A stretch of DNA of 33,396 nucleotides from Sphaeroforma arctica JP610 (lineage: Eukaryota). Position 1 is the stretch's first letter, and each line of letters begins with the position of its first letter. Below are positions 2,290-33,396 of the stretch, piece by piece. A program made the position numbers and the translations under genes. Below the pieces are notes generated by a model. That model did not search any database. It worked only from the letters and a program-made list of their open reading frames with translations, and had not been told where the DNA came from. The stretch covers positions 26,859 to 60,254 of the forward strand of contig NW_014040002.1 of the NCBI RefSeq assembly GCF_001186125.1, given 5' to 3'.

Positions 2290-5200
2290 TTAGGCCTGAA
2301 GTCGCAGGTTCTCATGGAAATTTCGCCCGTCTGTAGTGGCGTCAATAATGCCAGCACGGATAACGAAATCACCGAAGGTTTCCCCATGGTGACGGTCAGA
2401 AGCATACTGCTTGAATATAGGCTCGATGAGTTCGAGGATCTGTGCCTCGTTCACGCTCTCGCGGTATAGTTTGTTCAGACGCTCACCTGAATGACTACCA
2501 CCCAGTAACATGTTGTATGTACCTGGAGCTCGGCCCACGAACGCAATTTCTGCCATATAGGGCCTTGCGCATCCGTTGGGACAACCAGTCATACGGATAA
2601 CTATACTATCTTGTCTGAGACCGAACTGTTCGAGGAGGTCCTCCATCTTTGTAATGAGACTGGGCAAGTACCGCTCACTCTCGGCCATGGCTAATGCACA
2701 GGTAGGTAAGGCTACGCAAGCCATCGAGTTAAGTCTGAGACCTGTTGCGATTAAATGAAAAATAGAGTAAGTAGGGGACATATAGAATAGCGTTCATAAG
2801 GATACAATACAGAAGCAGGACCAACCGTCGACGTACAAGAGCGAATCAAAAACTTACCGGACATTTTCTCATTGCCGATTCCGTACTTGTGCATAATCTC
2901 ATCAATTATAGGCTTGTTATCATTCGAAACGTTTCCGAAAATGATATGTTGATTGGCGGTCAAGCGGAAATCACAGATTTTCTTCAACGCAATCTCCTTA
3001 AGGGCGGTCTTCATTTGAAGCTGAGGAGTGTCGATCACACGACCATTCGTAATGAACAAACAGTAGTGGTTTGTACCGTTCACACCCTTAGTCCATCCGT
3101 ATCTGTTTGTATAGCACGGCAAAATGAGAGTTTAGGGATCAGACAGTTGTACAAGGGGGTAAATTCATATCCGAGAACAACCAGTCAGACAATTCTACAG
3201 GACAAAAAGATATGAATAATAAACTTGAATGCTACATACCTGTCAGAATTATTCTTGAATGTAATAGGCATGCTAGGCTCCAACTTAAAACCAGCACGCT
3301 CCTCGACCTGCTCTCTGAACCAATCAATGCCGTGATCGTCCACAGTGTATTTGAGACGAGCATGTTTGCGGTTGACACGCTCACCATGGTCTCTCTGTAC
3401 CAACATAACTTTCTCACCCACAATCAATCCCTGCTCTGGGGTACAGAAGCCCAGCTGCTTCGCAATCTGAGGATACGTTTTCTTGTTACTGTGTGTCACA
3501 CCCATACCACCTCCCACGCTCACATTATAACCCAGCAACTTCCCGTCCGAAATGACAGCTGTGTATCCCAAGCAGTGGGCATATACATCCACATCATTGT
3601 TTGGCGGTACAGCAATAGCAATCTTGAATTTACGGGGCAGGTAGGTCTCGCCGTAAAGGGGTTCGTGATCCTTGTGCACGTCACCAGCCACCATCTTCTT
3701 GTCCAACCAAATCTCGTGGTAAGCTGAAGTCTGAGGTGACAAGTGCCGACTGAGCTCTCGGGCAAAGTGGTCCACCTCAGCGTGTACCGCACTCTCAAAA
3801 GGATTGGGGTTACACATCACATTTCTGTTTACATCGCCACAAGCGGCGAGTGTGTCCATGAGAGCCGCGTTGATGCCCTGAATGGTGGGCTTGAGCTTCT
3901 TCTTAATCACACCATGCAGCTGATAGGCCTGGCGGGTTGTCAGCTTGATGGTTCCATTTGCATGAGAGTCCGCAAGCGCGTCCATGGCTAGATACTGATC
4001 CGCTGTGGAGACACCTCCGGGCACACGCACACGGATCATAAATGAGAAGGCATTTTCCAGACCCTGGGCCTTGCGCTCTTCTCGGAGATCTCGATCGTCC
4101 TGCTGATAGATCCCGTGAAATTTAGTCAACTTAGTATCTCTCTCGGCAAGTGCACCGGTGCTCTCATCCGCCAACCCCTCCAAGATGGTGCCTCGCAAGA
4201 AGTTAGATCCAGTCTTAATGTCGTCATCAGTAATCTTGGGTGGTGCCGGACCGCCGCTGATACCGGCGACACCCAGAGCTTCCCACACGAGCTCCAACCA
4301 GGGCTCTAGTGCAGTATTGAAACCATCATCAGCCGAATCGTCTCCCAAGCCAATAGGGACCAAGCGTTGGCCACCCATAACCTCCAAACGCTCGTCAAGA
4401 TCCTTAGCCGGCTTACAAAAGTATAACTCACCCTCGGCACCAGGCCAGTAGTGAACATCTCCCAGCCCGAAGATCGCATATTGAGTGTTGTTGAGCGGTG
4501 TGTCGGAGGCCTGTAGTCCCTTCCATAGATCTTTGAAGTTGCCTGGGAACTCTCCCTGACCTGCTGTACAAAGCAGAAATATGACTTTGGTTTCCAAAGA
4601 CAAATCATCGGCCTCAAACTCATCACCAGCCATGCAACGAGCATTGAGTCCTCGTCCTTTCGCTTCGCGCTCCATGTTCTTGGCTACACCCTCAGCATTA
4701 CCGCCATCACTTCCATATAAGAATAGCACGGGGTCTCCACTCAAACCACTCAATAGACTGGAGTATGCCGCCACCGCCTTAGCCATGGTTTTAGTGTGTG
4801 TCTCGACAACCTTAGTTTCGGTCGATTTAGCTAGTGCTGGTGCTACGACGATCTTGTCCGCGGCCATCACACTCAGCTGTTTATCTTTCGCAAGGAAATC
4901 TAGCAAATCTTTCTTTGCTCGCTCGGAGTCCAACGAGAAGTTGTCCTTGCCGTTGTGCTCGTTCTGCGGGTTCCATCGGTACAATGGCCACAAACCACTA
5001 TCGACGGCTCGTTTTGTCTCTTTAAGAGCCTCCAATGGCTTAAGTGACTCTGAGATCCCCAGGGCACCAGCATCAACATGTGGCATGTATGCTAGAACGA
5101 CACTAGGACCGGGATAGCGGTCTGCTTCCATGCACGCTCGCAGTACTTGTGTGTAAGATGAGTAGAGTGCTACAGAAGCAACATAGCAGCCTCCATAGTT

Positions 5201-7356
5201 CATGGAGTACAAACCAATGTCCTTCTTCATCTTTTGGTGTCTGTTCTTGGACGTATGGGAGTAGGGCTGTGTGTCTAGGATAAGCACATTTACATCCTCT
5301 CCTCCGGAGATGATATGGTGTACACCACTGTCACTTAAATCACGTGCCCAATCATCACCACCAACTAGCCACCTCGACTTCTTGCTGAAGAGTTCACGAT
5401 CCTCGAATATACTGCTCAAAACCCCGTTCCCGTTCGCCTCTACACTTAGCAGTTCAGATATTTTTTCTTCTAGCGCCGCGGATTCCTTAGCGTCCTCCCG
5501 ATTCTGCAGCCATTGCAAAAAGAATTCCTTCAACCCCTCGCTCAAACCGATAGACTTGTCCCATAGTGCATGGTTTACAAGTTCAGCCAACTTACTTCGT
5601 CTCTGAAGATTGGCCGAGTGTACTCCGTAACCATATTCAATGGTGGACTTACCACCGTCACCCCATACTGTGGCGGAGCCGAATGCATTGGCAATAGCTA
5701 ATCTTTCTGCAAACAGGTGCTGTAATACCTTCACATATTGATTGTCTACATCATCGGACTTCTCGTCTGAAACCTTCAACGTGTGCAGTTTATCAACTCC
5801 CCCCTTGCCCAAAACAAAGGATGTTGCGGGTGTAGGAGAAGAAACGTGCTGAAATGCGGTTTGTACAATTTCGTGGGAGATACTTGACCCCTGAATTTGA
5901 CCACCGATCACCAAAGGTCGCTCATTCGAGTTCCAAAGATCCTCACTAGTTTCGTAAATAGCAGCCATGACATCCAAGTATAATGGACCGTAATAACTAC
6001 CATTCGACTGAGTTACATCTAACACTGCGATGCGTTTGCAAGTCTTCGGCAATGCTTTGATAAGCATGGCGCCAGACCACGGTCGAACCATACGGCACAG
6101 GAGTACACCACACTTGTCCCCAGCTTGTGAGTGACTAATAGTGTCGGCGAACACACTGCCAACAGTGCCTACAGCCAAGACAACGTGCTCTGCGTCTTTG
6201 GGTCCAACATATTCGAAAATGTGATAGCGATGTCCCAGAACGTTGGTCAGATCCTGTGCAATCATAAACAATACATATGAGGTACACATTTGCTTCATGG
6301 CGCAGAAATTATCAGAGAAGGGTTAACTAGAAAATGACAAACAAAAAGCAGGTCAAATCGACACTGTCAACAGGAATATAAAAATTAAACAACATATCGA
6401 GATAAACAACTAGGCGTACCTTCATAACCTCTTCAACTGCGGTGGGGAAATCAACTGATTCTGTCTTTGTCTCTGCCTCCGATCCCTCTTCTGCAGTCTC
6501 CTCGTGACTTTTATCTCCCTTTTTCTTGTAGTTATCAATAGTATCTGCATCGCCTTGAATGAACTCGAGCAGGGACTCCTTGTTAGCAAGAGCCACCGAG
6601 CCTTCGCGTGTGCTATCCCCATCGAAGAAATGAATGCTGGGAGTATTAGTGCGAGAGGCAGCGATCTGTGCAATAATAGACAGATCATGTGCTTCCTGTG
6701 TGGTCTGAGAGCTAAAGATAGCAAATCCAATCTCACTTAAAGCCATCACATCTCCGTGATCTGCGAGAGGCACTCCATTTGCCATGACCGTGGGGGCTGT
6801 TTGTACTAATAGGGCCCATTTTTCTTCGGCGACGTTATAAAGTGCTGGAATTAAGGACAATAGATTGTCGCTCGTAGTGTGTACCACAGTGAAGGGTGTG
6901 TTAGACGCCGCCGACTCCAAGGCTGAGGCACTGCCCGCAGCGTTCTGAGCAAAAATAAAACATATCAAGAGTAAGTCACACAGTAGCAACATTTGAAAAG
7001 AAGATATCTAATGAATATACGAGTGTTGAGGGTATTGCTCTGAGTAGGTTAACAATGGGCGTAAATCGAAGGCGGTGCAAACGGCATTCGGCCAAGAAAT
7101 TACGTACCCTGGATTCCACAACTGATATGTCCCTATCGAAGGAGTTTTTTTCTTGTGATAGTCCTTTTAGGGCTGAGTGTCCGCCGAGAACGGGTCTACC
7201 ACTGGCAGAGTCGAAGATGAAGACCTCATCGGCGAACAGATGGGTCACATGCGCAACCGCGACATCGGCAGTAACTTTTGGCGTTGCAGTAGCCGATGCT
7301 TTGCTGTTGCGTCCCCAGAGATTGCCCAAGGCATTCACAACGAAACTGGCCTGCAT
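2290..7356 (-). CDS. MET5: Sulfite reductase [NADPH] beta (hemoprotein) subunit, fungal Met5/ECM17 type: PFOR-like N-terminal domains + flavodoxin + NIR/SIR siroheme-[4Fe-4S] domains, about 1494 aa
   Basis: Exons 7356-7108, 6944-6420, 6253-3240, 3102-2858, 2741-2290. All four introns are GT..AG with consistent phases (0,0,2,1); spliced CDS is 4485 nt. Motifs: flavodoxin [11 protein letters not shown] and FGLGD; hemoprotein [30 protein letters not shown]; Fe-S/siroheme cysteines ACVALPTC and MTGCPNGC. Confidence 0.95.
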
Positions 7357-10090: not shown

Positions 10091-10605
10091 GACATAGCAT
10101 AGACACATATATATTTTATGCATATATATTTATATTGAATTGGACTCTTCAAAATATCATTATATTTGTGTACATTTTCATACATCCGCAGTTGTCTCCT
10201 ATGATCCAAGTGAAACTCAACTCTTCCGTAGAATATATGTTACTCTACAGTACGTAACACCCTTCTTTTGACTTCGGATACTTCACCATCGTATGTAACA
10301 ATCTCAATATCAAAAAAGAGCAACAACTCTTGCAACCATATCGCCAATAGCGTTTTTATTTACAAAGAATTGATTTTAACTGTCACACAAGTACTATATA
10401 TATGTGAAGGTAGCACTACTAGTGTCCCTATCCTTTAAATCCACATATAAAAATGAAACTCAAGCTGTCGACTTTCTTTTAGAGTCCTGATACATCCACG
10501 CGAGTTTAAGGTCGATTACCATCAAATCCACGTACAAGCACAAGCAACCCCTAATTAATATAGATATAGGCATTTGGTTGCTACAACAATCATCGCCGAG
10601 ACATC

Positions 10606-12618
10606 TTAACTGCTTTTCGTTGCATTTTCTCGCAGAATAGCCACGACCTCCGGGTACGCGAACCATTCGGGAATCTCTTCGCCTTCAACCAGCATTTTTC
10701 TGAACTTGGTACCAGAGATACTCATTGGTGTGTAGCCCTTCTCCTTAGCCTCGTCCACTGGAATGTATGCCTCTTCCTCCTTGGCATATACCATTGCCAT
10801 AAATGGCACCATGGTCACTCCAAGTTCCTTCTGCAGAGGCATCATAAGATCCTGCGCATCATATGCGCCGTAGAAGTCGTTACCTGACTTGTCCTTGCAG
10901 CCCGCATGATCGCGTCCGATAATCATGTGCGTGCAGCCATAATTCTTACGGATGAGGGCATGTTGCAAAGCTTCCCGAGGTCCACCGACCATCATACTGT
11001 AAGGAAGGTACTCGAAAGATACATGGTCGAGCTTCTTGGCCAGAGCATCGTACGTTAATTTGCGAACGGTGGCTGGAATATCGTCGTCCTTAGTGGGGCC
11101 GATAACAGGGTGGACCAGCACATCAGCATCATACTTCTCGTGTGCTCGCAAAAACATGGTGGCATGTGCTCTGTGAAGGGGGTTTCGTGACTGAAATGCG
11201 ATCAAATTCTTCCCTGGTGTTTTACTCGCTCTGATTTGTGCGGGAGTCTTACAGTCCACCCAATCTCGTTGCGGAAGCTTGTAAGCGTACACTTTTCCGC
11301 CAATATTGAACTTCTTCTTCTCCATGAGTACGTGGTACACTGATGGATGCTCCTCATTGACGGTACCGTACACCTTCTCGGCCTCGATGGAACGATTGGG
11401 TGTCCATTTGCTAGTGACATGAATGCACCCATGTCCACCAAATAGTGGATCCTTCAATTCAACCCAGTCCCCGATCTGAACGGACTCATCGTCAGTATCC
11501 AGAGTAACGGGCAGTCCAAATAGCTGGCCCTCGGGCAATCGCATATCTGCGATCACAGAGTTGTACTCGGTCTCGTTCATAAACCCTTCAAGAGGAGAAA
11601 ATCCACCGACAGAAAGCAGCTCAAAATCGCACACTTGGCGCTCGTTCATAGTGTGGATATGCGTGCAGTTGCTAAGAGGTGTTTCTATGCTGGCAACACC
11701 TCCCTCCACTAGTAGTTCTACTAGTTTACCACCGTGAGGTTCTCCCTTGCTGGTAATGCGTGTGTGAATACCGCATTCAGTTTGTAGGCGACCCACGAAG
11801 CGACCGGATCGCTCAGAGTCCTCGTATTGGACAGGTACAGAAGTATGTGTATCACCAAAACTCTTCCAGATATATACATATGGTGCTTGAGCGTGAATGT
11901 ACGCTTTGCTGTAAGCAAAGAAAGGAAGCGAAAGCTCCACCTTCTCAAACTTACTGTAAGTATCGCGATCTTCTGCGTAAACCTTTTCCTTAGACACTGT
12001 GATAGTCTTGTGCAGCGCGTTGTATGGCACATTGTATAGTAACACATACTCGCATACCTCCGACCAAGACCAACCAGCAAGAGGATTGAAGGTGCTTTTC
12101 TGAGGCTCCCATGTGTCAAGCGAGACTCGCTCATTGCCTTGATCGCAACGGCGACCTGTAATAGACACTTCCTTTCCAACCTCGTTCAATGCATTCACTA
12201 GAGGATCAATTTTGCTGTGCTTGTCGAAGTCGTCGTAAGACAGGGTCGCGTGGTTCCCGAACTTGGCCTCAAATTCCTCCTTGGTATTGCAGCCCTCAGG
12301 TTTTCTAATCACTGCCTTGAAGTTGTACTTGGCCTCCATTTCGGTGACAACATCGAGCGTCTCTGGGAACAAATGCAAAGTGTCGACACCAACGACAGTA
12401 GGCATAAAGTCGGCAAAGCGGGAGAAAAGATCAACGATCACATTATCACTAACCAGCCAGGCTGATACGACTACAATCTTCTCGGGCTGAAATGATGAGA
12501 GGTGATTCTGTACATCCGTCTTGAAGTTGTTGATCTTCTCCTTAAGATTTGCCGTTATCTCGACGGGCGTAGAGTTTTCTACGCGAGCGCGCTTAGCAGA
12601 ACCGTTAGCAACCGTCAT
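10606..12618 (-). CDS. cysH-sat: Bifunctional APS/PAPS reductase (CysH/Met16 family, about aa 1-285) fused to ATP sulfurylase (Sat/Met3 family, about aa 294-670); intronless, 670 aa
   Basis: Reductase motifs: DTLHLFPET, ITGRRCDQ, FNPLAGWS, YNALH, SFGDTHTS, ERSGRF, ECGIH. After an 8-aa linker, sulfurylase motifs: PHGGKL, DFELLSVGGFSPLEGFM, FQSRNPLHRAH, GPREALQHALIRKNYGCTHMIIGRDHAG, ISGTKFR. One continuous ORF. Confidence 0.93.
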   Translation of the reverse strand: MTVANGSAKRARVENSTPVEITANLKEKINNFKTDVQNHLSSFQPEKIVVVSAWLVSDNVIVDLFSRFADFMPTVVGVDTLHLFPETLDVVTEMEAKYNFKAVIRKPEGCNTKEEFEAKFGNHATLSYDDFDKHSKIDPLVNALNEVGKEVSITGRRCDQGNERVSLDTWEPQKSTFNPLAGWSWSEVCEYVLLYNVPYNALHKTITVSKEKVYAEDRDTYSKFEKVELSLPFFAYSKAYIHAQAPYVYIWKSFGDTHTSVPVQYEDSERSGRFVGRLQTECGIHTRITSKGEPHGGKLVELLVEGGVASIETPLSNCTHIHTMNERQVCDFELLSVGGFSPLEGFMNETEYNSVIADMRLPEGQLFGLPVTLDTDDESVQIGDWVELKDPLFGGHGCIHVTSKWTPNRSIEAEKVYGTVNEEHPSVYHVLMEKKKFNIGGKVYAYKLPQRDWVDCKTPAQIRASKTPGKNLIAFQSRNPLHRAHATMFLRAHEKYDADVLVHPVIGPTKDDDIPATVRKLTYDALAKKLDHVSFEYLPYSMMVGGPREALQHALIRKNYGCTHMIIGRDHAGCKDKSGNDFYGAYDAQDLMMPLQKELGVTMVPFMAMVYAKEEEAYIPVDEAKEKGYTPMSISGTKFRKMLVEGEEIPEWFAYPEVVAILRENATKSS

Positions 12619-13993
12619 GATTATATGTTTGATCGACTAGGTGGCAATGTATGTCTTCAAATAGGCTCAATGTACGCTGTGTGCTTCAAATAAGTATGAA
12701 AGTCCGGGTTGAGTCGACAAATATATTTTCAAAGGCTCCGTTGATTTTGAATGAACCACACGGTATTATATATTTTATTTTAATTTTTTTAACTAACGGC
12801 CTTCTCTCTCTCTTTTGTGTTGACGCTTGCTCGAATCAGACGTATGACATGTTGACATTTGACATGCATTGAAACTTTGAAAGTTCATTCAAATTGATAA
12901 AATATATAGGGCTTATGATTGGTGAATCGTTATTCATGACGGGAATTTCTTTCTGGCTTTTTGTCCCACATACAAGAAGCCAGCTATGCGACAAAAATTC
13001 AAAAATATAGCGAGAAACGGGACTGGGGACATATCAGGTCCAAAATAAATATTGTGAACAAAAATTGATCGATCAAATTGATCATTTGCCTGTAATCCCA
13101 TTCGTCCGCGTCCAATTTTCTGATGCATCAGCTGATCGGAGTCATCGGACAACAAAAATCGAAACAAAATGACGACTCGGCACTCTCGCGGTAAGATCGG
13201 GATTGTGGAGACTCTGGGAGAGGACTCAGAGGAGTCCGGAGGTGGGGCGTGGGGCGCCATGCCAGGGGCTGACGGCCATTTTTTTTTTTACAGTAAAGGG
13301 AAGGCATGTCTGAGTGAGTCTGAGTGTCTGACTGTCTGATCGCCTGTGGCCGTGGGTTCCAAACTTCCAGCTGGTTGTGAGTGACTTTTTTTGTGACAGT
13401 CAGATACTTCACAGCCTCGCAGGCTCGCCCTCTGCACAGCTCACCACACTCACAGCCTCACAGGGGGTGTGGGGGGGGGACTAATAATAAAGTGATGACA
13501 CAGTTAAAAAAAATGGCATGCTTTTGTCGAATATCTGGCACACACGATTGTAGTATTTCGTATTTTATTTTATTTATATTTATTTATTTTAGAAGGGGGG
13601 GGGGGTCGGAGATCTAGAGCCTAGAGGGGGGTGGATATTGGGGGTTGGACCGACTTGGACGTTAGACGGCTGGAGTCTTGGACAGTTTAGTAGAGCCTGA
13701 GAGACGAGATTGACCTTTTGTGGACGGGTCATCCGTGACAGGCTCTCTCGGTTTCACCTACTCGCCTATAAAATAGATATATGAAAATCGTGGTATTTTG
13801 TAGTATGACTGTATGTGATGCCAGCTTTAAAAACCTGAGGAAGCTTTTCATATATCCTTATGTACATTGCTTATTCTAAACATTCTCACACTTGAGGTAT
13901 TGGTCGACGAGATTTTCCGCCACTACGAACTAGATTCATTTATAACATTGTGAGCTCCTTTAAAAGTTGCTAGTGATATCAAACAAGGTCAAC
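12619..13993. promoter_or_regulatory. Divergent intergenic region, candidate bidirectional promoter for the fusion gene and the methyltransferase
   Basis: Head-to-head start codons 1375 bp apart. Contains three TGACAT copies (12846-12866), the palindrome TTGATCGATCAA (13065-13076), G-tracts, and TATAAAA near 13767 upstream of the methyltransferase. Confidence 0.5.
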
Positions 13994-14881
13994 ATGGCTC
14001 CAAACCGCATCGAATACAATTTTGCGGGTGCTCAATCCGTAGAATCATTTGATAGTGCTGAGTTTAGTGAAGATGATATATATCACATAGCTCCAAGAGA
14101 TATTGATGATATAGGTATTGGTCTGGGCAATGAAGTACATCGACCGGTGATACGTGGAAATCTTTTCCTGGTAGGATCCGGTCCCGGTGACCCTGAGCTG
14201 CTAACCATGGCTGCATACAGGCATTTGTGTACCGCGGATTTGGTTGTATCCGATCGGCTGATTCCACAAGAGATTTTAAAACTGGTCACCGGGGATTTAA
14301 AGATTGCGCGTAAACACCCTGGCAACGCGGACGCGGCCCAAGTTGAGCTGATGGATTGGTGCATGGAAGGCATACTGAGGGGCCAAAAAGTGGTTAGATT
14401 AAAGAACGGCGACCCTTTTCTGTACGGCCGGGGAGGGGAGGAAGTCAACTATTTTAGAAGGTTTCATATTGATCCTGTGGTAATACCAGGTATTTCAAGC
14501 TCGTTAAGCGCACCACTTCTGGCAGGGATTCCCCCAACCCACAGAGGGGTGGCTGACCAGGTATTAATAGCTACCGCACACGGCAAAAATGATACTATAC
14601 CGGACTTGCCACCTTACGCACGGAATCGTACTACGATATTTCTGATGTCGATTGGACGGCTAAATACACTTACAAAAGGCCTGATGCAGGAAGCAGGCTT
14701 CCCCACAGACACTCCAGCGGCCATCATCGAAAAAGCGTCCCATTCCAACGGACAACAACGTGTATTCAAAAGTACATTAGAACACATCGCACGCATAGCC
14801 GATTTAGAAAATGTAAAGCCGCCAGGGGTGGTGGTTGTTGGTCACACTGTTAACGCCATCACAGAAAATTACAAGTTCTGA
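13994..14881 (+). CDS. MET1: Uroporphyrinogen-III C-methyltransferase (SUMT, CobA/Met1/CysG-A type), stand-alone and intronless, about 295 aa
   Basis: First ATG at 13994 (the ORF track starts at an upstream TTG). Motifs LVGSGPGDPELLT, ADLVVSDRLI, VVRLKNGDPFLYGRGGEE, VIPGISS, TPAAIIE. Confidence 0.93.
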   Translation: MAPNRIEYNFAGAQSVESFDSAEFSEDDIYHIAPRDIDDIGIGLGNEVHRPVIRGNLFLVGSGPGDPELLTMAAYRHLCTADLVVSDRLIPQEILKLVTGDLKIARKHPGNADAAQVELMDWCMEGILRGQKVVRLKNGDPFLYGRGGEEVNYFRRFHIDPVVIPGISSSLSAPLLAGIPPTHRGVADQVLIATAHGKNDTIPDLPPYARNRTTIFLMSIGRLNTLTKGLMQEAGFPTDTPAAIIEKASHSNGQQRVFKSTLEHIARIADLENVKPPGVVVVGHTVNAITENYKF

Positions 14882-15024
14882 CATCCTGCGGGCTTGAGAC
14901 CGTTCCATTGAAGCTAATGCCGTTAAGGTGTTGGTTGTGGGTTACACTGTAACGCCACCATAGAAAATTACAAGTTTTGACACACTGCGGGTCACCGCGA
15001 CAGTATTGAAGCAAACGCCTTTAA
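14827..15024 (+). repeat. Diverged tandem duplication (about 100-bp period) of the last codons, stop and start of the 3' UTR of the methyltransferase gene
   Basis: 14827-14926 (ggtggtggttgttggtcacactgttaacgccatcacagaaaattacaagttctgac...) versus 14927-15024 (ggtgttggttgtgggttacactgtaacgccaccatagaaaattacaagttttgac...). Confidence 0.9.
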
Positions 15025-16118: not shown

Positions 16119-16938
16119 NNNNNNNNNNNNNNNNNNNNNNNNNNNNNNNNNNNNNNNNNNNNNNNNNNNNNNNNNNNNNNNNNNNNNNNNNNNNNNNNNN
16201 NNNNNNNNNNNNNNNNNNNNNNNNNNNNNNNNNNNNNNNNNNNNNNNNNNNNNNNNNNNNNNNNNNNNNNNNNNNNNNNNNNNNNNNNNNNNNNNNNNNN
16301 NNNNNNNNNNNNNNNNNNNNNNNNNNNNNNNNNNNNNNNNNNNNNNNNNNNNNNNNNNNNNNNNNNNNNNNNNNNNNNNNNNNNNNNNNNNNNNNNNNNN
16401 NNNNNNNNNNNNNNNNNNNNNNNNNNNNNNNNNNNNNNNNNNNNNNNNNNNNNNNNNNNNNNNNNNNNNNNNNNNNNNNNNNNNNNNNNNNNNNNNNNNN
16501 NNNNNNNNNNNNNNNNNNNNNNNNNNNNNNNNNNNNNNNNNNNNNNNNNNNNNNNNNNNNNNNNNNNNNNNNNNNNNNNNNNNNNNNNNNNNNNNNNNNN
16601 NNNNNNNNNNNNNNNNNNNNNNNNNNNNNNNNNNNNNNNNNNNNNNNNNNNNNNNNNNNNNNNNNNNNNNNNNNNNNNNNNNNNNNNNNNNNNNNNNNNN
16701 NNNNNNNNNNNNNNNNNNNNNNNNNNNNNNNNNNNNNNNNNNNNNNNNNNNNNNNNNNNNNNNNNNNNNNNNNNNNNNNNNNNNNNNNNNNNNNNNNNNN
16801 NNNNNNNNNNNNNNNNNNNNNNNNNNNNNNNNNNNNNNNNNNNNNNNNNNNNNNNNNNNNNNNNNNNNNNNNNNNNNNNNNNNNNNNNNNNNNNNNNNNN
16901 NNNNNNNNNNNNNNNNNNNNNNNNNNNNNNNNNNNNNN
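16119..16938. other. Assembly gap (820 N)
   Basis: Run of N next to a microsatellite. Confidence 1.
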
Positions 16939-17170: not shown

Positions 17171-19911
17171 TTAGACATTGCAGGGTTCCTCGGAACTATC
17201 TAGCTCCGGACTCGTAGCATTGGATGGTTCATTGGCTTCACTCATACTGGCCGTCGAAACTTCACTGTTACTGCGACTGCCTCTCGTTGAAGCTTCACTA
17301 TGACTCCTGCTGCTTCCTTCTGTGTCTATATTCACTATTTCTGACTCTACCTCCACAGTCATGTTCGTGTTCGTCGATGCTCTGGCTATCTTCAGTTTGA
17401 ATTTCTCGCCGTCTTGAGATTCCCCCGATCGGGAGGAATTTGAAGCCACCACCGTGACAGGCGGTCCCTGTAATGATAGCGCTGTATCGGGAGATCCGGA
17501 TGAAGTCATCGACCGACTCTCGACATTCTCTTGCAGCTGCTCGTCATTATCGGCGGCCTCGACATCTGGATCGTCCCGCCAACGCTTAGGGCGGAGCCGC
17601 CGTTGTACTGTACTCCATTGACTCTGCACAAACGAGTCCTCAGCACTTGTTATTACATAAGCATAGAGGGCTCCAAGAAGGCCCACTAACACCGAGAAGA
17701 TTGCAATAAACCACCGTTGTTCGTAAAAATATAGGACACAAATCGTCACCGCGAATCCTATAATCTGCAGAGGAAATCCAGTCTTCGCGTAGTTTTTGGT
17801 GTCGTACCGACCAGGTCCCATCACCATTAGCGACGTTTTGTCGCCAGATGGCAGCATGAAGCTGTGAGAGGCCCCCATTAGCACTGCGTACACGACTTGC
17901 GTATAGTACGAGGTCTCGGCTATCGATGAATCTCGAAGGATGGGAAGCAGAAGCGCTACGGCCGCATTGTTGTTGATAAATGAAGACAGTAGAGTTGCGA
18001 AGAGGTAGAAAACTAGATAGATCAGTATTTCACTTAAATCTGCTGTGATCGTTGTGATGACATCCGCCATTCTCGTCGTAAGTCCACTAGTCTGCATCGC
18101 AGCCGCCAATCCGAGAGCACCCATAATAGTCATTAATACCTTGGCATTTTTAAGAAAGACGCTCCCGACAGTTCCAAAGGTGATGACCAAACTGGCAATC
18201 TGAATAGTGACTACTCCCAACAGGATCCTGTTTTGTTAGTATAAATTTGTAATTAGTGCAGCTCCACACAGTTCATTGGAAAACATTTGAAAGCCACAGA
18301 ATAACATACAGAGAGTTCAAACGACGAAAACTTACCTTGCAAACTCGTTGACGAAGATGTTCAGGACGATGGCACCCGCAAATATAACAGTGTTGAACGC
18401 TATCAACCAAATATTGATGCTTTTTGTTTCTACCTTTGTGCCACATGTTTCGCACTTTGTGGCCTTGATGCCAAGTTGAACTACTAAGCTGAAATCTTGA
18501 GAATTCTCTGCAAGTTCAAGAAATCTCTCGTCGGATTCTACAATCAGAAGATCCCGGGGCATCAATGGCAGCTGTAACTGCTCTACATTCCCAACTATTA
18601 GGGTGCCGCCCCGATATACTTGGAGTATGAGAGCGCTATACTCTTTGCGTAGTCGGTCCCGATACGCGCCAAATGTGTCCAAACTGGGGCCTACGTCAGC
18701 AATAACGACTTCAAACAATCGACCTGATGATCCCTGATGTTGGTCGGGAGCGAGCTTCACCAAACCGTAGCAGCACTTTACACTGACGAGCCTCTCTAAG
18801 GACCCAGCAAATGTTAGGGTGTCCCCCACCCTGAAGGTAGTACTTGGCCGCAAAGGAAATGCACAGGTCCCATCATTGTGGTCCACTCGCTTAAGTTGCA
18901 ACTCGGCAGAATCATACAGACCAACTTCATTAGCGGTTTTACCGACCAAGAAATGCCCGTCCGGAATCTCAAAGCGAACAGCATACGACATAATATCATC
19001 AAAATCGGCATCGTCGTCCTCCGGTAGAGATATTTTGTTTTCAGGCAATAATCGGTGCGAAAAGAACATAAGATATAGCACACCAAAGCCTAGCACACTC
19101 AGACCTAATGGCGTGATGTCAAAAGTTCCCAGATTAAGCCCCGAGATATTGTTGGCTACCAAATTAGTACTGCTTCCGATCATAGTGCAAGTTCCACCCA
19201 AAACCGATGCATAACTCAGCGGTATCATCAACTTCCCGACGCCCCTAAAAATGTGGTAGGAGGAATAAATGTTAAGATTGGTTTATCGTTTTGGACTCAC
19301 GGTCATGTAAGCCTGAACTTATTGAAATGATACTAGTAGCATACTTTACAACGAAAATGACACTCGATACTCGCAAACTTGTTGGGAGCGACAGATAGGA
19401 CAATGAAGGACTAATCAACGATACGTTGCACCCGCTATAGCTGTATACTACAGTATATATTGCTTCGCTTCAAACACGAGTTCACCCCATACCTGTTATG
19501 ACCGACAGCCCAACGGATTAGTGTGGGAATGAGTACAGCAACTACGGCAGAGTTGTACATAAATCCGGATAACATCGGTACGAACACACAAAGGACCGTG
19601 ATGCATCTTTCAACGCTGCCAGTCTTTGGCAGCAAGTGCCGCGTTAGGATATCATCTAAGCCTGCCTTTGCCAACCCATGCCCAATAACTAATAATAGTG
19701 CTATTGTGAATACTGTAGTGTCTGAAAACGCCTCCAAAATTACATTTATTGTGGCTCCTCCAAAGAGTATGATAAATATGATAGGGATGAGAAAGCATGT
19801 GTGCGGTTCTAACTTCTGACTGAGAAGCAGAATGACTGTCGCTACTAAGGCGATGCCTACGATCACTGTTTCGTACGTCGTGTACTCTCCCACATCTAAT
19901 TCCCCAGCCAT
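17171..19911 (-). CDS. SLC13/DASS-family anion permease with central TrkA-C (RCK_C) domains, SLT/SAC1-like; probable Na+/sulfate transporter, about 794 aa
   Basis: Exons 19911-19493, 19244-18336, 18227-17171 with GT..AG introns, both phase 2, and an ACTAAC branch site before exon 3; spliced CDS is 2385 nt. Motifs SGFMYNSAVVAVLIP, KLMIPLSYASVLGGTCTMIGSSTNLV, TrkA-C-like FEIPDGHFLVGKTANEVGL, LSSFINNNAAVALLLP, LMVMGPGRY. Sulfate as substrate is inferred from family and gene context. Confidence 0.88.
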
Positions 19912-23446: not shown

Positions 23447-26400
23447 ATGCCTCCAATTCCACATAATCTTCAAAACCGTGAGCCGGTCCAGGTCGAGACC
23501 GGCCCCGGCGCCAAATCGCCACCAAACGGCACGGGTGTGCATCGCAGATCGTCCATACGAAGCACATCGACCTCACTGAGCCGCAACTCGAGTTCTAATT
23601 TTATATCACGCACATACAGTCGCGGTAGTAGCAGCAGTCTGAATAAGATCGCATTAGACGCACAAGTGCGCTATGCAAGTGTGAACGGCCACACAGCTGC
23701 ATCGTACGTGGCCTATGCTGTGTCGGATATCAACTTCGTATACCCATCTGCGCCATCCGCTTACTTGGGGTCAGATGTCGATGAATGGCACGCGAGTGAT
23801 GTCAAAAATGCTTACGGTCATACCGGAAAGCACTCCAAACTTCAGGTAAGTACGATACCAATCAAATACAATTATCTGTGCTCTCGGTTTAGTCAAGTAT
23901 GTTTACTCGCGTCGTATTCGAGGGAAGCATGCCGTTTTTGAATAATGTGTTTCAAATTGCAGTACTAAAGTTTAATTTATTGTGCCGCAGAAAATTCGTT
24001 ATTATATAGAAACTACGTATATTTACTTCTGACTTGGCGATACACTGGTGCACATATAGATAGATGTTATGGATACCGCGTGTACAGGTTTTAAGTATAA
24101 ATTTATGCATCTATATATATGTATATGTGTGTTTTGAATGTGTATACGTGAGAACGTCCCGCATATGACTACATGTCGTACATTTCTAAAAAACTAACTA
24201 CCGACTGAGCACAATTTGTAAAAAAAAAATCATGAATATGATATTACTCACGGGACGTTAAATAAGATGGAGTTCTGATATTTATTTATTTTTATGAAAT
24301 TATAGGTGAAGGCTGGTGCTGGTTTGGTCCTCCACGGTGCTCTATCTGTGGGAGAGCTCGGTACAGTCTATGCCGCATCCGACGCTATTAAATTTATGCT
24401 ACCAACCATACATTACTTAGCAAACAGTCAGCTATCAAGCGTGATGCATTTTGATACAAAATCACTCGGCGACGACCTGACTGTTAACGTGAACCACACA
24501 CAAATCATGTTGGCTCGCAATACCGGAGCTGTTATCTTGAGTTCGCACTCGGTGCAGGAAACCCACGATATCGCACTAATTGCACACATCCTTACCCTAC
24601 GTGGTAAAGTGCCAGTAATGCACATGATAGACGGATCCAACACAGCACGGGAGACGTCACGTGCACGCCTGTTGCAGTACGGCGAGATCAACTCACTAAT
24701 GAACAAATATGGCGATCTCGAGAGACACCGCGAGCAGTCCAACTCTGCACGCCACCAGCCTGTGACGGGCTCAACCCATAACTCGTCCGAGACTACCGCA
24801 CAGATCGCCGAGGATGTTATGCGTGAGGTATCAGATGCCTTGGGTGTGCGCTACGCACCCTTCGAGTACGTAGGGGCCCGTGACGCCGAAGTCGTGGTGG
24901 TGGTAATGGGCTACCCCGCCCAGGTCTTCTCCGAAACAAGTCGTCTGTTGTGCAGTGTAGGTCGCCCTGTGGGTGTGCTTAAGATCCGTATGTACCGCCC
25001 CTGGTCCGCCCGGCACTTCGTGTCCGCGCTACCCGTATCCGCCAAGCGGCTGGTGGTTATGGACTTCACATCACCCCAGGCATCAGTGCACGTACCTGGT
25101 GCTCTGTTCTTGGATGTTTTGGCTACCGTGGAATCCCAGATCTACGGCACTAAGAAACCTCAGGTGTTGCAAGGCAAGGCCTCTGTGGCAACATTCACAC
25201 CGGCGATGGCCAAGGCCGTCTTTGACTTTGCGGCACACCAAACACGTACATCGTTCACTATTGGACACGAAGGTGCGTCAGCGTACGAGCTAGAAATTGA
25301 AGGGGATGTATCGGCTGTGCCCGAGAATGTGAGTCAGGTGCTGGTATGGCAAAAGGAGAGCGACAACCTGCTCGAACCCATGAACAACCTGCTCTCCACG
25401 CTATGTGACGGCTCCGACACATTCGTACAAAGCAACACATTCTACGATGCGTACAAGCATGGTGGGGTATCCACCTCTCACATCCGCTTGGGTCCCTCAC
25501 CAATCAACGCCCCTTATCCTATCGGCGAGGCTAACCTTGCGATCGTGTCGAGCTCATCCCTGCTAGAAGCGTACGATGTAGTGGCTTCGTTGCGAACGGG
25601 AGGTGTACTTTTAATTAACGCCAGCGTCGAGAGTGTCGACGAGAAGAGCGACGAGCTTCCTACGCTTTTCAAGCAGGAGGTTCTGAACAAGGAAATTTCA
25701 GTATATACCATCGATTTTGAAAAGATAGTGCGAGAGAGCGGATTAGAGCACGAACATGAGGCCACGGCTATGGCAGTTGCTCTGATTACTTCAATTGTTC
25801 GTTTGGCTGGGCTTGCTTCTTTCGAGGCCACCCTTGTTGATCTTCGCACTTGTCTGGATGAGAAGGCAATCGACAGTGAAGTGTTCGAACGCCAAATACA
25901 GATTCTGGAACAGGTGATCGAGAGCGGACTAGTGTTGCAAAAGATTCCGGAAAGTTGGGGAGAGGTACCTTTGCCTCTTGAGATCAAAGAGGGCGAAGAT
26001 GTACCCGAGGTTCTGGCTTTACCTACCGCGGTAGCCGGCAATTTGCTACCCAGCACTGGATACAAGTACGAGGAGCCGAAAACTCATGTGCACTCGAAGT
26101 CTCACCACGCAGCATGGATGGGTATGTTCTCTGAGGCCTATCAGACCAGGGAAGCACTCCGCCCCTCAGAGCACACATCGTATGTGGTCACGTGTACCGA
26201 GAACCGACGCCTGACACCCGACGACTACGAGAGGAATGTCTTCCATATGGAGATGGACATTACTGGCACTGGTTTGGTGTACAATATTGGAGATGCACTT
26301 GGTGTTTGGGGATCCAATGGAGATGACGAAGTGAATGATTTCCTACAGTTCTATGGTCTGAACGGTGATGATGTTGTCGGCGCTGCTCGAGCTCCGTCCG

Positions 26401-27460
26401 GTCACCATGCTGATGAGGCAATCGCGAACGCCAACGTGGAGTACAGAACTATTACGCACTGGCTGCAACAAGTGACTGACCTATTCGGCCGACCTGGTAA
26501 AGGATTTTATGAAGCCTTAGCTGAATACGCTGAAGATCCGGATGAAAAGGCGGAATTACTGCGACTAATTGGAGACACGGGCAAACCTGATTTCAAGAAG
26601 AGGGTGGAGGAGACGGTTACATACGCTGATGTATTGAGGGAGTTCCCCAGTGCGCACCCCTCAGTGGAGGATTTGATCAAGCTCATTGCACCCATCAAAC
26701 CAAGGCACTATTCTATTGCTTCGTCGCAGCGCATGCACGCAAACTCAGTGCACTTACTGGTCGTGGTACACGACTGGCAGACACCCGCAGGCAGACATCG
26801 TATCGGTCAGTGCACGCGCTACCTGGTGGGTGTACGCCCTGGAACCAAGATGACCGTGTGTGTAAAGCCGTCGGTGATGATCTTACCGCCCAGGCAGACA
26901 CAAGCATGTATCATGTCCGGCTTGGGAACGGGTATGGCACCCTTCCGCGCGTTTATACAGGAGCGTGCGTGTGCTAAGCTAGCTGGAGAAGAGGTTGGTC
27001 CTATGATCTTGTACTTCGGGTCACGTTCAAGGGGACAGGAGTACCTGTACGGAGAGGAGTTAGAGGCTTACCATGCGGATGGTCTGCTCAGCGGCCTTCG
27101 TCTGGCGTTCTCGCGAGATCAACCCCATAAGGTAAGTACATGTCAGATTAGTCTATTCTGCTGTACATGGTCTCAGTAAAATGTATTGTACTTGTTCTTC
27201 CCGCTTACGCACCTGCTTCACTTTTCACCTATCAGATATATATTCAGCACAAGATGATGGAGGACAAGGAATACCTCAACGAATACCTTAACAACAGCGA
27301 CGGACACTTCTATCTGTGCGGCCCTACATGGCCTGCGGGCGATGTTCGTGATGCTATTGTTGGCAGTTTCGTGGAAGCCGGTGGTCTGAGTGAGGCCGCG
27401 GCGACCATGACCCTACAGAAACTTAAGGATGATGAGAGATATATCCTCGAGGTGTATTAA
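23447..27460 (+). CDS. MET10: Sulfite reductase [NADPH] alpha (flavoprotein) subunit, fungal Met10 type: PFOR-like domains + FAD/NADPH-binding FNR-like domain, about 1149 aa
   Basis: Exons 23447-23845, 24306-27131, 27236-27460, with GTAAGT..AG phase-0 introns; spliced CDS is 3450 nt. Motifs KAGAGLVLHG, MYRPWS, ENRRLTPDDYERNVFH, IKPRHYSIASS, GLGTGMAPFRAF, LYFGSR, FYLCGPTWP, and C-terminal ERYILEVY. Confidence 0.95.
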
Positions 27461-27567: not shown

Positions 27568-27900
27568 GCTAATGAAAGATCATATGTTTCAGTCCTCCAA
27601 GGCTAGTCAAAGATCATATGTTTCGGTTCTTTAGGGCCAGTTAAAGGACCACATGTTTTAGTCCTCTAGGGCTAGTGAAGGATCTTATGTTTCAGTCCTT
27701 TAGGGCCAGTGAAGGACCATATGTTTTAGTCCTTTAGGGCTAGTGAAGGATCATATGTTTCAGTCCTCTAGGGCTAGTGAAGGATCTTATGTTTCAGTCC
27801 TTTAGGGCCAGTGAAGGACCATATGTTTTAGTCCTTTAGGGCTAGTGAAGGATCATATGCCTCAGTTCTTTATCGCTAGTGAAGGATTAAATGTTCTAGT
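27568..27900. repeat. 34-bp minisatellite, about 9.7 copies, consensus GCTAGTGAAGGATCATATGTTTCAGTCCTTTAGG
   Basis: Contiguous units start at 27568, 27602, 27636, 27671, 27705, 27739, 27773, 27807, 27841 and 27875; no spacers between units. Confidence 0.95.
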
Positions 27901-33301: not shown

Positions 33302-33396
33302 CTGTATTATGAAGCGATGGTCCGATTTAGTGGGAAACATATGAATTATAGACAAGTTACATTGTACATGCAATCATATCTATTTATATACTTATA

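What the first reader, a model, noticed from the sequence alone, without database searches (positions are those of the whole stretch)
10606..12618. Reductase::ATP sulfurylase fusion instead of the usual sulfurylase/kinase fusion
Seen: a CysH-family domain ending ECGIH (11764-11778) is joined by TRITSKGE to a full ATP sulfurylase starting PHGG (11728-11739), and the protein ends with no APS-kinase-like domain. Known: animals fuse APS kinase to ATP sulfurylase (PAPSS) and fungal Met3 has a C-terminal kinase-like domain; from memory, a reductase-sulfurylase fusion has been noted only sporadically, for example in a dinoflagellate. Inference: the fusion could channel APS and pull the unfavourable sulfurylase reaction. 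The normally free, mobile ECGxH catalytic tail is tethered to the second enzyme.
Basis: partly seen in the sequence, partly recalled or inferred. Interest (0 to 1): 0.82.

Follow-up and report, generated by a model that had tools for sequence, protein, structure and literature searches.

The report
Kinase-free sulfate-assimilation cluster in animal relative
A single-celled relative of animals carries a two-in-one sulfate-activating and sulfate-reducing enzyme, of a kind already reported in dinoflagellates and Capsaspora, inside a block of five neighbouring sulfate-assimilation genes that likely turns sulfate into sulfide without the extra kinase step fungi use.

Summary
Window 10606-12618 (-) is one intronless 670-aa frame: an FeS-free CysH-family reductase, an 8-residue linker, a complete ATP sulfurylase, and no APS kinase. 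Transcript-like contigs span it. The fusion is not new. Patron 2008 described it in Heterocapsa with the same channelling idea, and Prioretti 2014 added other dinoflagellates, Chromera and Capsaspora, noting no activity data. It is also not sporadic: 118 of 120 best homologues share the architecture, across ichthyosporeans, Corallochytrium, Syssomonas, filastereans, alveolates and one giant-virus bin. A shared ~45-residue insert and fixed linker point to one origin. The gene sits in a 25-kb block (Sphaeroforma arctica by a 100% named match) with both sulfite reductase subunits, a siroheme methylase and an SLC13-type transporter, but no APS kinase. Gene numbers show the same spacing for three of the five genes in Creolimax. 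I found no paper describing this cluster. Most likely the enzyme reduces APS directly, which pulls the sulfurylase. True channelling is unshown. The scan's notes held nothing like it. Interest 0.48.

The parts
10606..12618 (-). APS-reductase(APR-B-like)::ATP sulfurylase fusion gene, 670 aa, intronless
   Evidence: homologues; model
11764..12486 (-). CysH-family reductase domain (residues 45-285), no Fe-S cysteine pairs
12445..12465 (-). P-loop SAWLVSD; Asp58 aligns with the Asp of moss APR-B and with Gly in yeast PAPS reductase
11866..12009 (-). about 45-residue family-specific insert (residues 204-251) between YNxLH and KSFGD
11764..11814 (-). catalytic tail: ERSGRF substrate-binding motif and ECGIH with Cys282
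   Evidence: motif roles from PMC8173546
11740..11763 (-). 8-residue linker TRITSKGE (T286, R287 invariant in 114 of 114 rows)
10606..11739 (-). Sat-type ATP sulfurylase (PUA-like + catalytic domain); QSRNPLHRAH at 11164-11193
10341..12727 (.). extent of the longest transcript-like contig spanning the fusion (run X6; RNA is the tool's guess)
2290..7356 (-). sulfite reductase beta (Met5-like: PFOR-like + flavodoxin + siroheme/Fe-S domains); candidate GT-AG splicing gives an open frame of about 1500 aa in 5 exons
13994..14881 (+). uroporphyrinogen-III C-methyltransferase (first step of siroheme synthesis), divergent from the fusion gene
   Evidence: (TIGR01469 193.6 bits, cut-off 185)
17171..19911 (-). 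SLC13/DASS-type anion transporter with TrkA-C domain, likely a sodium:sulfate symporter; about 790 aa in 3 candidate exons
23447..27460 (+). sulfite reductase alpha (Met10-like flavoprotein), 3 exons, 1149 aa, equal to named record SARC_07207; divergent from the transporter

Best explanation
The gene encodes one chain holding an intact ATP sulfurylase and an intact iron-sulfur-free CysH-type reductase, and it sits among four other sulfate-assimilation genes, which together likely convert imported sulfate to sulfide by reducing APS directly, with no kinase step. Shown by sequence: both domains keep their catalytic motifs, the linker is fixed at 8 residues across the family, and the block holds a transporter, both sulfite reductase subunits and a siroheme methylase but no APS kinase. 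Inferred: the transporter imports sulfate. The sulfurylase makes APS. Cys282 attacks APS to form an S-sulfo intermediate that a separately encoded thioredoxin releases as sulfite. The NADPH-dependent two-subunit reductase makes sulfide. Removing APS next to where it is made would relieve product inhibition and pull the unfavourable first step, by proximity and 1:1 stoichiometry rather than a sealed tunnel. The protein is probably cytosolic (no targeting presequence). The fusion likely arose once and is shared by unicellular holozoans and alveolates; the direction of any transfer is unresolved.
For: Catalytic motifs conserved in the 114-row family alignment: K136, GRR, ERxGRF, QxRNPxH in all rows and C282 in 113. 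No CC or GCxxC Fe-S motif in 114 of 114. P-loop Asp58 in 105 rows, Glu in 1, gap in 8; it matches moss APR-B 4BWV and differs from yeast and Candida PAPS reductases and from 10 of 10 fungal-type rows. No kinase in the window: CysC probe best E 1.3, positive control 3e-45. High APS reductase activity was reported in H. triquetra extracts (PMC2275785 section 9). The AlphaFold2 model has mean pLDDT 92.2 and pTM 0.88, with the tail/linker region lower at 74-78. Cluster. Creolimax numbering 4553 (sulfite reductase alpha), 4555 (tetrapyrrole methylase) and 4556 (fusion) mirrors the window and SARC_07207/07205. Single origin: shared insert and linker, and fused reductases form one clade with the insert columns removed (87/87; 100/99 with two unfused insert-bearing rows).
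Against: No member of the family has published activity data in what I read (PMC4220642). The P-loop Asp rule is recalled, not read, and is not absolute: diatom-type thioredoxin-fused rows carry Gly there, although APR activity is reported for diatom extracts. Foldseek ranks yeast PAPS reductase 2OQ2 above 4BWV; VIA-align reverses this by only 1.4 Z. The block also lacks thioredoxin, the later siroheme steps and the cysteine/homocysteine synthase (none found in the frames scanned), so a missing kinase is suggestive, not decisive. Creolimax synteny rests on gene numbers for three of five genes, without DNA. No convincing shared upstream motif. Trees lack free-standing algal, moss and fungal sulfurylases; AU tests settle neither placement (p 0.078; p 0.38).
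Confidence: 0.75

Rival explanations
1. The reductase half is a PAPS reductase. APS leaves the enzyme, is phosphorylated by an unlinked APS kinase and returns, as in fungi; the fusion only co-expresses two steps.
For: FeS-free like fungal Met16; 2OQ2 is the top reductase in Foldseek; the cluster's sulfite reductase is fungal-type; two unfused insert-bearing relatives have a Gly P-loop; the genome outside the window is unseen.
Against: Near-invariant P-loop Asp shared with APS-using moss APR-B; no kinase in the cluster or in the giant-virus bin carrying the fusion (control rang in 11 of 14); fusing steps 1 and 3 while leaving out step 2 gives little gain.
Confidence: 0.12
2. True substrate channelling (first reader, Patron 2008): APS passes between the two sites without mixing with bulk solvent, through a fixed interface built by the insert and the 8-residue linker. 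This is a stronger variant of the best explanation, not exclusive of it.
For: Linker length 8 in 111 of 113 rows matched; insert with invariant R218, P232 and near-invariant L229, Y249; pTM 0.88 suggests a defined domain arrangement; channelling is accepted for some bacterial sulfurylase-kinase fusions.
Confidence: 0.2
3. The five genes are neighbours by ancestral linkage or chance and are not a co-regulated unit.
For: Intergenic gaps of 1.4-3.5 kb; no shared upstream motif above background; no expression data across sulfur sources; synteny beyond two close genera untested.
Against: Five consecutive genes of one pathway with no other recognisable gene between (an 820-base N gap at 16120-16938 is unseen); two divergent pairs; order kept at 70-82% protein identity in Creolimax by gene number; the same two species have a co-regulated nitrate cluster (PMC6400420).
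Confidence: 0.15
4. The fusion is an assembly or annotation artefact, or one domain is dead.
For: The runs laid are only guessed to be RNA.
Against: Single stop-free frame; single contigs across the junction in 4 of 4 runs, one from a strain about 94% identical; over 100 homologues with the same junction; all catalytic motifs kept.
Confidence: 0.02

Closest known systems
APR-ATPS fusion of Heterocapsa triquetra, Amphidinium, Chromera velia and Capsaspora owczarzaki (PMC2275785; PMC4220642 Fig. 3E)
   Same: Same domain order and full-length homology (Capsaspora 59%, dinoflagellates about 44%), same insert, linker and P-loop.
   Different: Here in an ichthyosporean, without a targeting presequence, and inside a five-gene pathway cluster that those papers' passages do not mention.
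APR-B of Physcomitrella patens (PDB 4BWV), FeS-free APS reductase
   Same: No Fe-S cysteines, F/YxxxxK and GDxxxS motifs, P-loop Asp; best reductase match by sequence.
   Different: Free-standing, lacks the 45-residue insert, about 33% identity.
Fungal Met3 (ATP sulfurylase with kinase-like domain) + Met14 + Met16 pathway, with Met5/Met10 sulfite reductase
   Same: Sat-type sulfurylase fold (Z 48.8 to 1J70); two-subunit fungal-type sulfite reductase.
   Different: No kinase or kinase-like domain; reductase fused instead and with a different P-loop. The only fungal linkage I found in print is a sulfurylase/PAPS reductase gene pair in Aspergillus terreus (PMC7653285).
Metazoan PAPS synthase (APS kinase::ATP sulfurylase)
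   Same: A second enzyme fused N-terminal to the sulfurylase to consume APS.
   Different: The partner is a reductase, the product sulfite not PAPS; sulfurylase only about 24% identical to PAPSS.
Nitrate assimilation gene cluster of Sphaeroforma arctica and Creolimax fragrantissima (PMC6400420)
   Same: Transporter + reductases (+ tetrapyrrole methylase in Creolimax) clustered, with a fused enzyme, in the same two species.
   Different: Different pathway; that cluster is shown to be co-regulated, this one is not yet. The paper's TPmet tree lists 4555T1 and SARC_07205, but the passages read do not place them in a sulfate cluster.
Bacterial cysH-sat operons (Bacillota; L135, plasmid hits H9, H16)
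   Same: Same gene order reductase then sulfurylase.
   Different: Two separate genes, Fe-S type reductase, about 30% identity; none of the 80 best bacterial loci showed a fused frame (597+ matches, 80 kept).

Membership tests
APR-ATPS fusion (Patron 2008; Prioretti 2014 type E) | N-terminal CysH-family reductase and C-terminal ATP sulfurylase in one chain | tested here: met
APR-ATPS fusion (Patron 2008; Prioretti 2014 type E) | full-length homology to the described members | tested here: met
   Capsaspora 59% over 97%, Chromera-cluster row 45% over 95%, named dinoflagellates 43-46%; the Heterocapsa sequence itself was not among the named rows
APR-ATPS fusion (Patron 2008; Prioretti 2014 type E) | both activities in one protein | not testable with these tools
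   motifs intact; no assay
APR-B (FeS-free APS reductase) | no CCxxR/K and GCxxC cysteine pairs; Y/FxxxxK and GDxxxT/S instead | tested here: met
   FDKHSK 131-136, GDTHTS 255-260; 0 of 114 rows with the cysteine pairs; criteria from PMC2275785 Fig. 4 legend
APR-B (FeS-free APS reductase) | ECG[IL]H catalytic motif and R(S/E/A)GR(W/F) motif | tested here: met
   motifs from PMC8173546
APR-B (FeS-free APS reductase) | prefers APS to PAPS | not testable with these tools
   indirect only: P-loop Asp, no kinase in the cluster
APR-B (FeS-free APS reductase) | branches with moss APR-B | tested here: inconclusive
   moss sequence not in my tree; sister rows P0168/P0171 (P0171 with a moss-like P-loop) have only 87/33 support
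Fungal PAPS reductase (Met16) | TTAFGLTG-type P-loop and place in the fungal clade | tested here: not met
   SAWLVSD; fungal rows form a separate 100/100 clade; TIGR02057 125.5 bits, cut-off 254.2
PAPS synthase / Met3-type kinase fusions | APS kinase or kinase-like domain | tested here: not met
   (NF004040 348 bits, cut-off 669)
Sat-type ATP sulfurylase | PUA-like + catalytic domain with QxRN and HxxH motifs | tested here: met
   TIGR00339 360.6 bits, cut-off 322.95
Eukaryotic metabolic gene cluster | three or more adjacent, non-homologous genes of one pathway | tested here: met
   five genes in 25,171 bases
Eukaryotic metabolic gene cluster | linkage conserved in another genome | tested here: inconclusive
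   three of five genes by consecutive Creolimax gene numbers; DNA not seen; no metagenome locus with the fusion held a cluster neighbour, but these loci were mostly 2-3 kb
Eukaryotic metabolic gene cluster | co-regulation | not tested
   no expression series across sulfur sources; motif scan negative

The most novel reading that the evidence does not exclude
Unicellular relatives of animals run a third, kinase-free route of sulfate assimilation that is ancestral to Holozoa. It is built on a rigid two-site enzyme that hands APS straight from sulfurylase to reductase. In Sphaeroforma and Creolimax the whole route is packed in a sulfur-regulated, operon-like cluster. The fused gene has moved between holozoans and alveolates, with giant viruses as a possible carrier, was retargeted to mitochondria in dinoflagellates, and gave rise by fission to the free sulfurylase of marine picocyanobacteria.
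Probability: 0.12. Interest if true: 0.78.

Novelty: new variant of a known kind. Interest (0 to 1): 0.48.

Why it matters
The fusion itself is in print, but by the 2014 review it had no activity data and an unexplained holozoan-alveolate distribution. This window gives an intronless, presequence-free copy in a cultured species that already has a characterised nitrate cluster, so two standing questions become directly testable: whether FeS-free fused reductases use APS, and whether APS is channelled. It also challenges the rule of thumb that plastid-less eukaryotes reduce PAPS (PMC2275785, PMC11350084), and bears on what the ancestors of animals lost. The five-gene cluster appears undescribed in the library searched, and would be a second inorganic-nutrient cluster in these osmotrophs.

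Tried and rejected
No genome held, so no test for a PAPS synthase, APS kinase or thioredoxin elsewhere. First metagenome scan found nothing; the second gave 60 loci, mostly 2-3 kb, none with the fusion plus a cluster neighbour; L047 and L135, which looked fused by tblastn, are unfused bacterial operons. The representative-protein search was busy on 8 tries, so free-standing algal and fungal sulfurylases are missing from the trees. Complex prediction on the two halves gave no answer. Upstream motif scan of five 700-base regions gave only AT-rich or weak words; yeast Cbf1/Met31-type words (recalled) are not enriched. The AU tests did not reject monophyly of fused sulfurylases (p 0.078) or of holozoan-type reductases (p 0.38), so I reject any firm claim on donor or direction. 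The papers on P-loop specificity and the APR-B structure were not held (searches found nothing usable). The capsid search in the virus bin rang nowhere and is uninformative. Two more viral scans returned only the same contig. The Atlas listing only returned the fusion's own cluster; its taxa are not used as evidence. The scan's earlier notes: three unrelated bacterial notes, none by place or words.

Full report
Observation. Window 10606-12618 on the minus strand is one frame of 670 residues from ATG to TAA. Pfam finds a PAPS-reductase domain (56-206), a PUA-like domain (293-446) and an ATP-sulfurylase domain (457-664), and no kinase. In 4 of 4 runs laid, one contig covers the whole frame with short flanks, and none covers 12854-13698 between this gene and the next. 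That is the shape expected of transcripts, but the runs are RNA only by the tool's guess, and the intron test could not be run. A contig cannot show strand or level.

Organism. The neighbouring sulfite reductase alpha frame is 100% identical to a record named SARC_07207 of Sphaeroforma arctica, an ichthyosporean. No whole genome is held.

The family. Of the 120 best homologues listed (of 3529 found), 118 carry all three domains, the window's own protein included. Named ones are CFRG4556T1 (82%; Creolimax by its prefix, which I recall and which fits the numbering), Syssomonas, Pigoraptor, Chromosphaera, Abeoforma, Capsaspora, Clim (Corallochytrium by prefix), Chromera and several dinoflagellates at 43-46%. 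Most rows are unnamed, so the list does not show absence in any group. I aligned 114 of the 120, leaving out six shorter rows. The linker from ECG[IL]H to the sulfurylase start is 8 residues in 111 rows and 9 in 2; one row did not match the pattern. Between the YNxLH and KSFGD motifs there are 47-55 residues in the 103 rows matched. In 51 more distant reductases it is 4 residues in 40, unmatched in 9, and 66-67 in 2 (probably a mis-anchored pattern, not checked). With the insert columns removed, the 35 fused reductases sampled form one clade (87/87), and 100/99 with two near-identical unfused insert-bearing rows. This points to one origin of the fusion. In the sulfurylase tree, holozoan-type rows group with Chromera (98/87), while dinoflagellate-type rows group with Synechococcus/Prochlorococcus enzymes (100/100). 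That fits the eukaryote-to-picocyanobacteria transfer proposed in PMC2275785 (section 7), but monophyly of fused sulfurylases is not rejected (p-AU 0.078), and free-standing algal and fungal enzymes were not available. In the reductase tree the dinoflagellate type falls among holozoan rows with weak support, and holozoan monophyly is not rejected (p-AU 0.38). Both trees used LG+G4 without the mixture model. Direction of transfer is open.

Mechanism of the enzyme. Both halves look active: K136, GRR, ERxGRF and QxRNPxH are in 114 of 114 rows and C282 in 113. The roles of these tail motifs are from PMC8173546 (passages and section 7). No row has the Fe-S cysteine pairs. The P-loop carries Asp58 in 105 rows, Glu in 1 and a gap in 8. 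It aligns with Asp in moss APR-B (4BWV), which reduces APS, and with Gly in yeast and Candida PAPS reductases and in 10 of 10 fungal-type rows. That an acidic P-loop residue excludes the 3'-phosphate of PAPS is recalled; the source papers were not held. It is not absolute, as diatom-type rows have Gly. The AlphaFold2 model is confident (pLDDT 92.2, pTM 0.88; only residues 1-16 disordered) with a dip to 74-78 over residues 271-290, consistent with a tail that still moves. It matches yeast sulfurylase (Z 48.8) and 4BWV/2OQ2 (Z 23.8/22.4). I had no coordinates, so no distance between sites was measured. APS is a strong product inhibitor of sulfurylases and its reduction is exergonic, so coupling helps even without a tunnel; channelling was disproved for human PAPSS1 (PMC3734648 passages). 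A tail that continues past ECG[IL]H is not unique: thioredoxin-fused and fungal reductases do so too.

The cluster. The spliced genes can be read as open frames with GT-AG introns (exon ends of two genes are candidates). No other recognisable gene lies between them in the frames checked, though an N gap at 16120-16938 is unseen. A bacterial APS kinase probe finds nothing in the window (best E 1.3) and 3e-45 in its control. In Creolimax the alpha subunit is 4553, a tetrapyrrole methylase is 4555 (supplementary files 23 and 24 of PMC6400420) and the fusion is 4556. In S. arctica the first two are 07207 and 07205. The spacing equals the window's order, so the block likely predates the split of the two genera. 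Genes 4554 and 4557 and the DNA were not seen, and matching SARC_07205 to the window's methylase is by number. No shared upstream motif stood out.

What is in print. PMC2275785 (passages and sections 7, 9, 10) describes the fusion in Heterocapsa triquetra and proposes APS channelling. PMC4220642 (passages) adds Amphidinium, Chromera and Capsaspora, says no activity data exist and calls the holozoan-alveolate similarity hard to explain. PMC11350084 (passages) repeats the fusion in 2024. For the cluster I searched: sulfate assimilation + Capsaspora + sulfurylase; Creolimax/Sphaeroforma/sulfate assimilation/gene cluster; sulfate assimilation/gene cluster/eukaryotes/horizontal/holozoa; APR-ATPS + dinoflagellate; Sphaeroforma + sulfite reductase. 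I read passages of PMC6400420, PMC11286789 (no mention of sulfate or sulfur), PMC13345962 (two of three supplements) and PMC7653285. None describes it. The library lacks most subscription papers, and 17 of 31 supplements of PMC6400420 were not searched, so 'not in print' is limited to this.

Side results. A giant-virus bin carries a full-length 646-residue copy with ECGIH and the sulfurylase motifs. Its neighbours include an Erv1/Alr oxidase, a SWIB protein, a natural H2B-H2A doublet and a weak match to a solved virus protein VP88; the bin has VLTF3 and A32 markers and no APS kinase or sulfite reductase match. Sulfurylase genes in giant viruses are already reported (PMC11265010 passages), not as fusions in those passages. 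Its branch is long and placed differently in the two trees. Of 73 non-holozoan-type rows with a Met-start extension of 20 residues or more (of 100), 70 are basic and nearly acid-free and 1 has a hydrophobic stretch. This looks like mitochondrial targeting by composition only, whereas PMC4220642 lists the Heterocapsa enzyme as plastidial.

Verdict. The wider holozoan range, evidence for one origin, the APS-type P-loop and above all the kinase-free five-gene cluster are additions that a sulfur-metabolism or protist-genomics specialist would find interesting and testable. Interest 0.48; new variant of a known kind.

Noticed in passing
L141:3995-5935 (giant-virus bin G001): Full-length reductase::sulfurylase fusion (646 aa, 38% to the window protein) among giant-virus-like genes; it lacks the PHGG start of the sulfurylase. 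The bin has no APS kinase or sulfite reductase match.
   Followed up: partly
proteins P0015-P0116 (dinoflagellate-type fusions): 70 of 73 N-terminal extensions are Arg/Lys-rich, acid-poor and non-hydrophobic, like mitochondrial presequences, against the published plastid assignment. No predictor was run.
   Followed up: partly
proteins P0124/P0314: Unfused reductases that carry the family insert but a Gly-type P-loop and a non-sulfurylase tail; sister to all fusions. Either the pre-fusion state or a fission. Both from contigs of about 1.1 kb.
   Followed up: partly
window 12583-12594 (-): A basic KRxR/K word in the otherwise unconserved N-terminus of the Sphaeroforma, Creolimax and Corallochytrium proteins; resembles a nuclear localisation signal (recalled).
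   Followed up: no
L061-L127: The closest bacterial sulfurylases are those of Synechococcus, Prochlorococcus and Cyanobium (43-51%), grouping with dinoflagellate-type fusions.
   Followed up: partly
window 14820-15010: The 3' end of the methyltransferase gene is repeated imperfectly just after its stop codon.
   Followed up: no
window 31207-33326 (-): Exons of a WD40-repeat gene flank the cluster on the right (weak Pfam hits); it resembles the Raptor C-terminus (recalled).
   Followed up: no
window 27590-27900: Imperfect tandem repeat with a unit of about 36 bases downstream of sulfite reductase alpha, seen by eye.
   Followed up: no
window 16120-16938: Assembly gap of Ns next to long microsatellites inside the cluster.
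   Followed up: no
proteins P0182, P0186, P0201, P0204 and others: Chytrid sulfite reductase alpha subunits are fused to siroheme synthase domains, another coupling of the functions that are clustered here.
   Followed up: no
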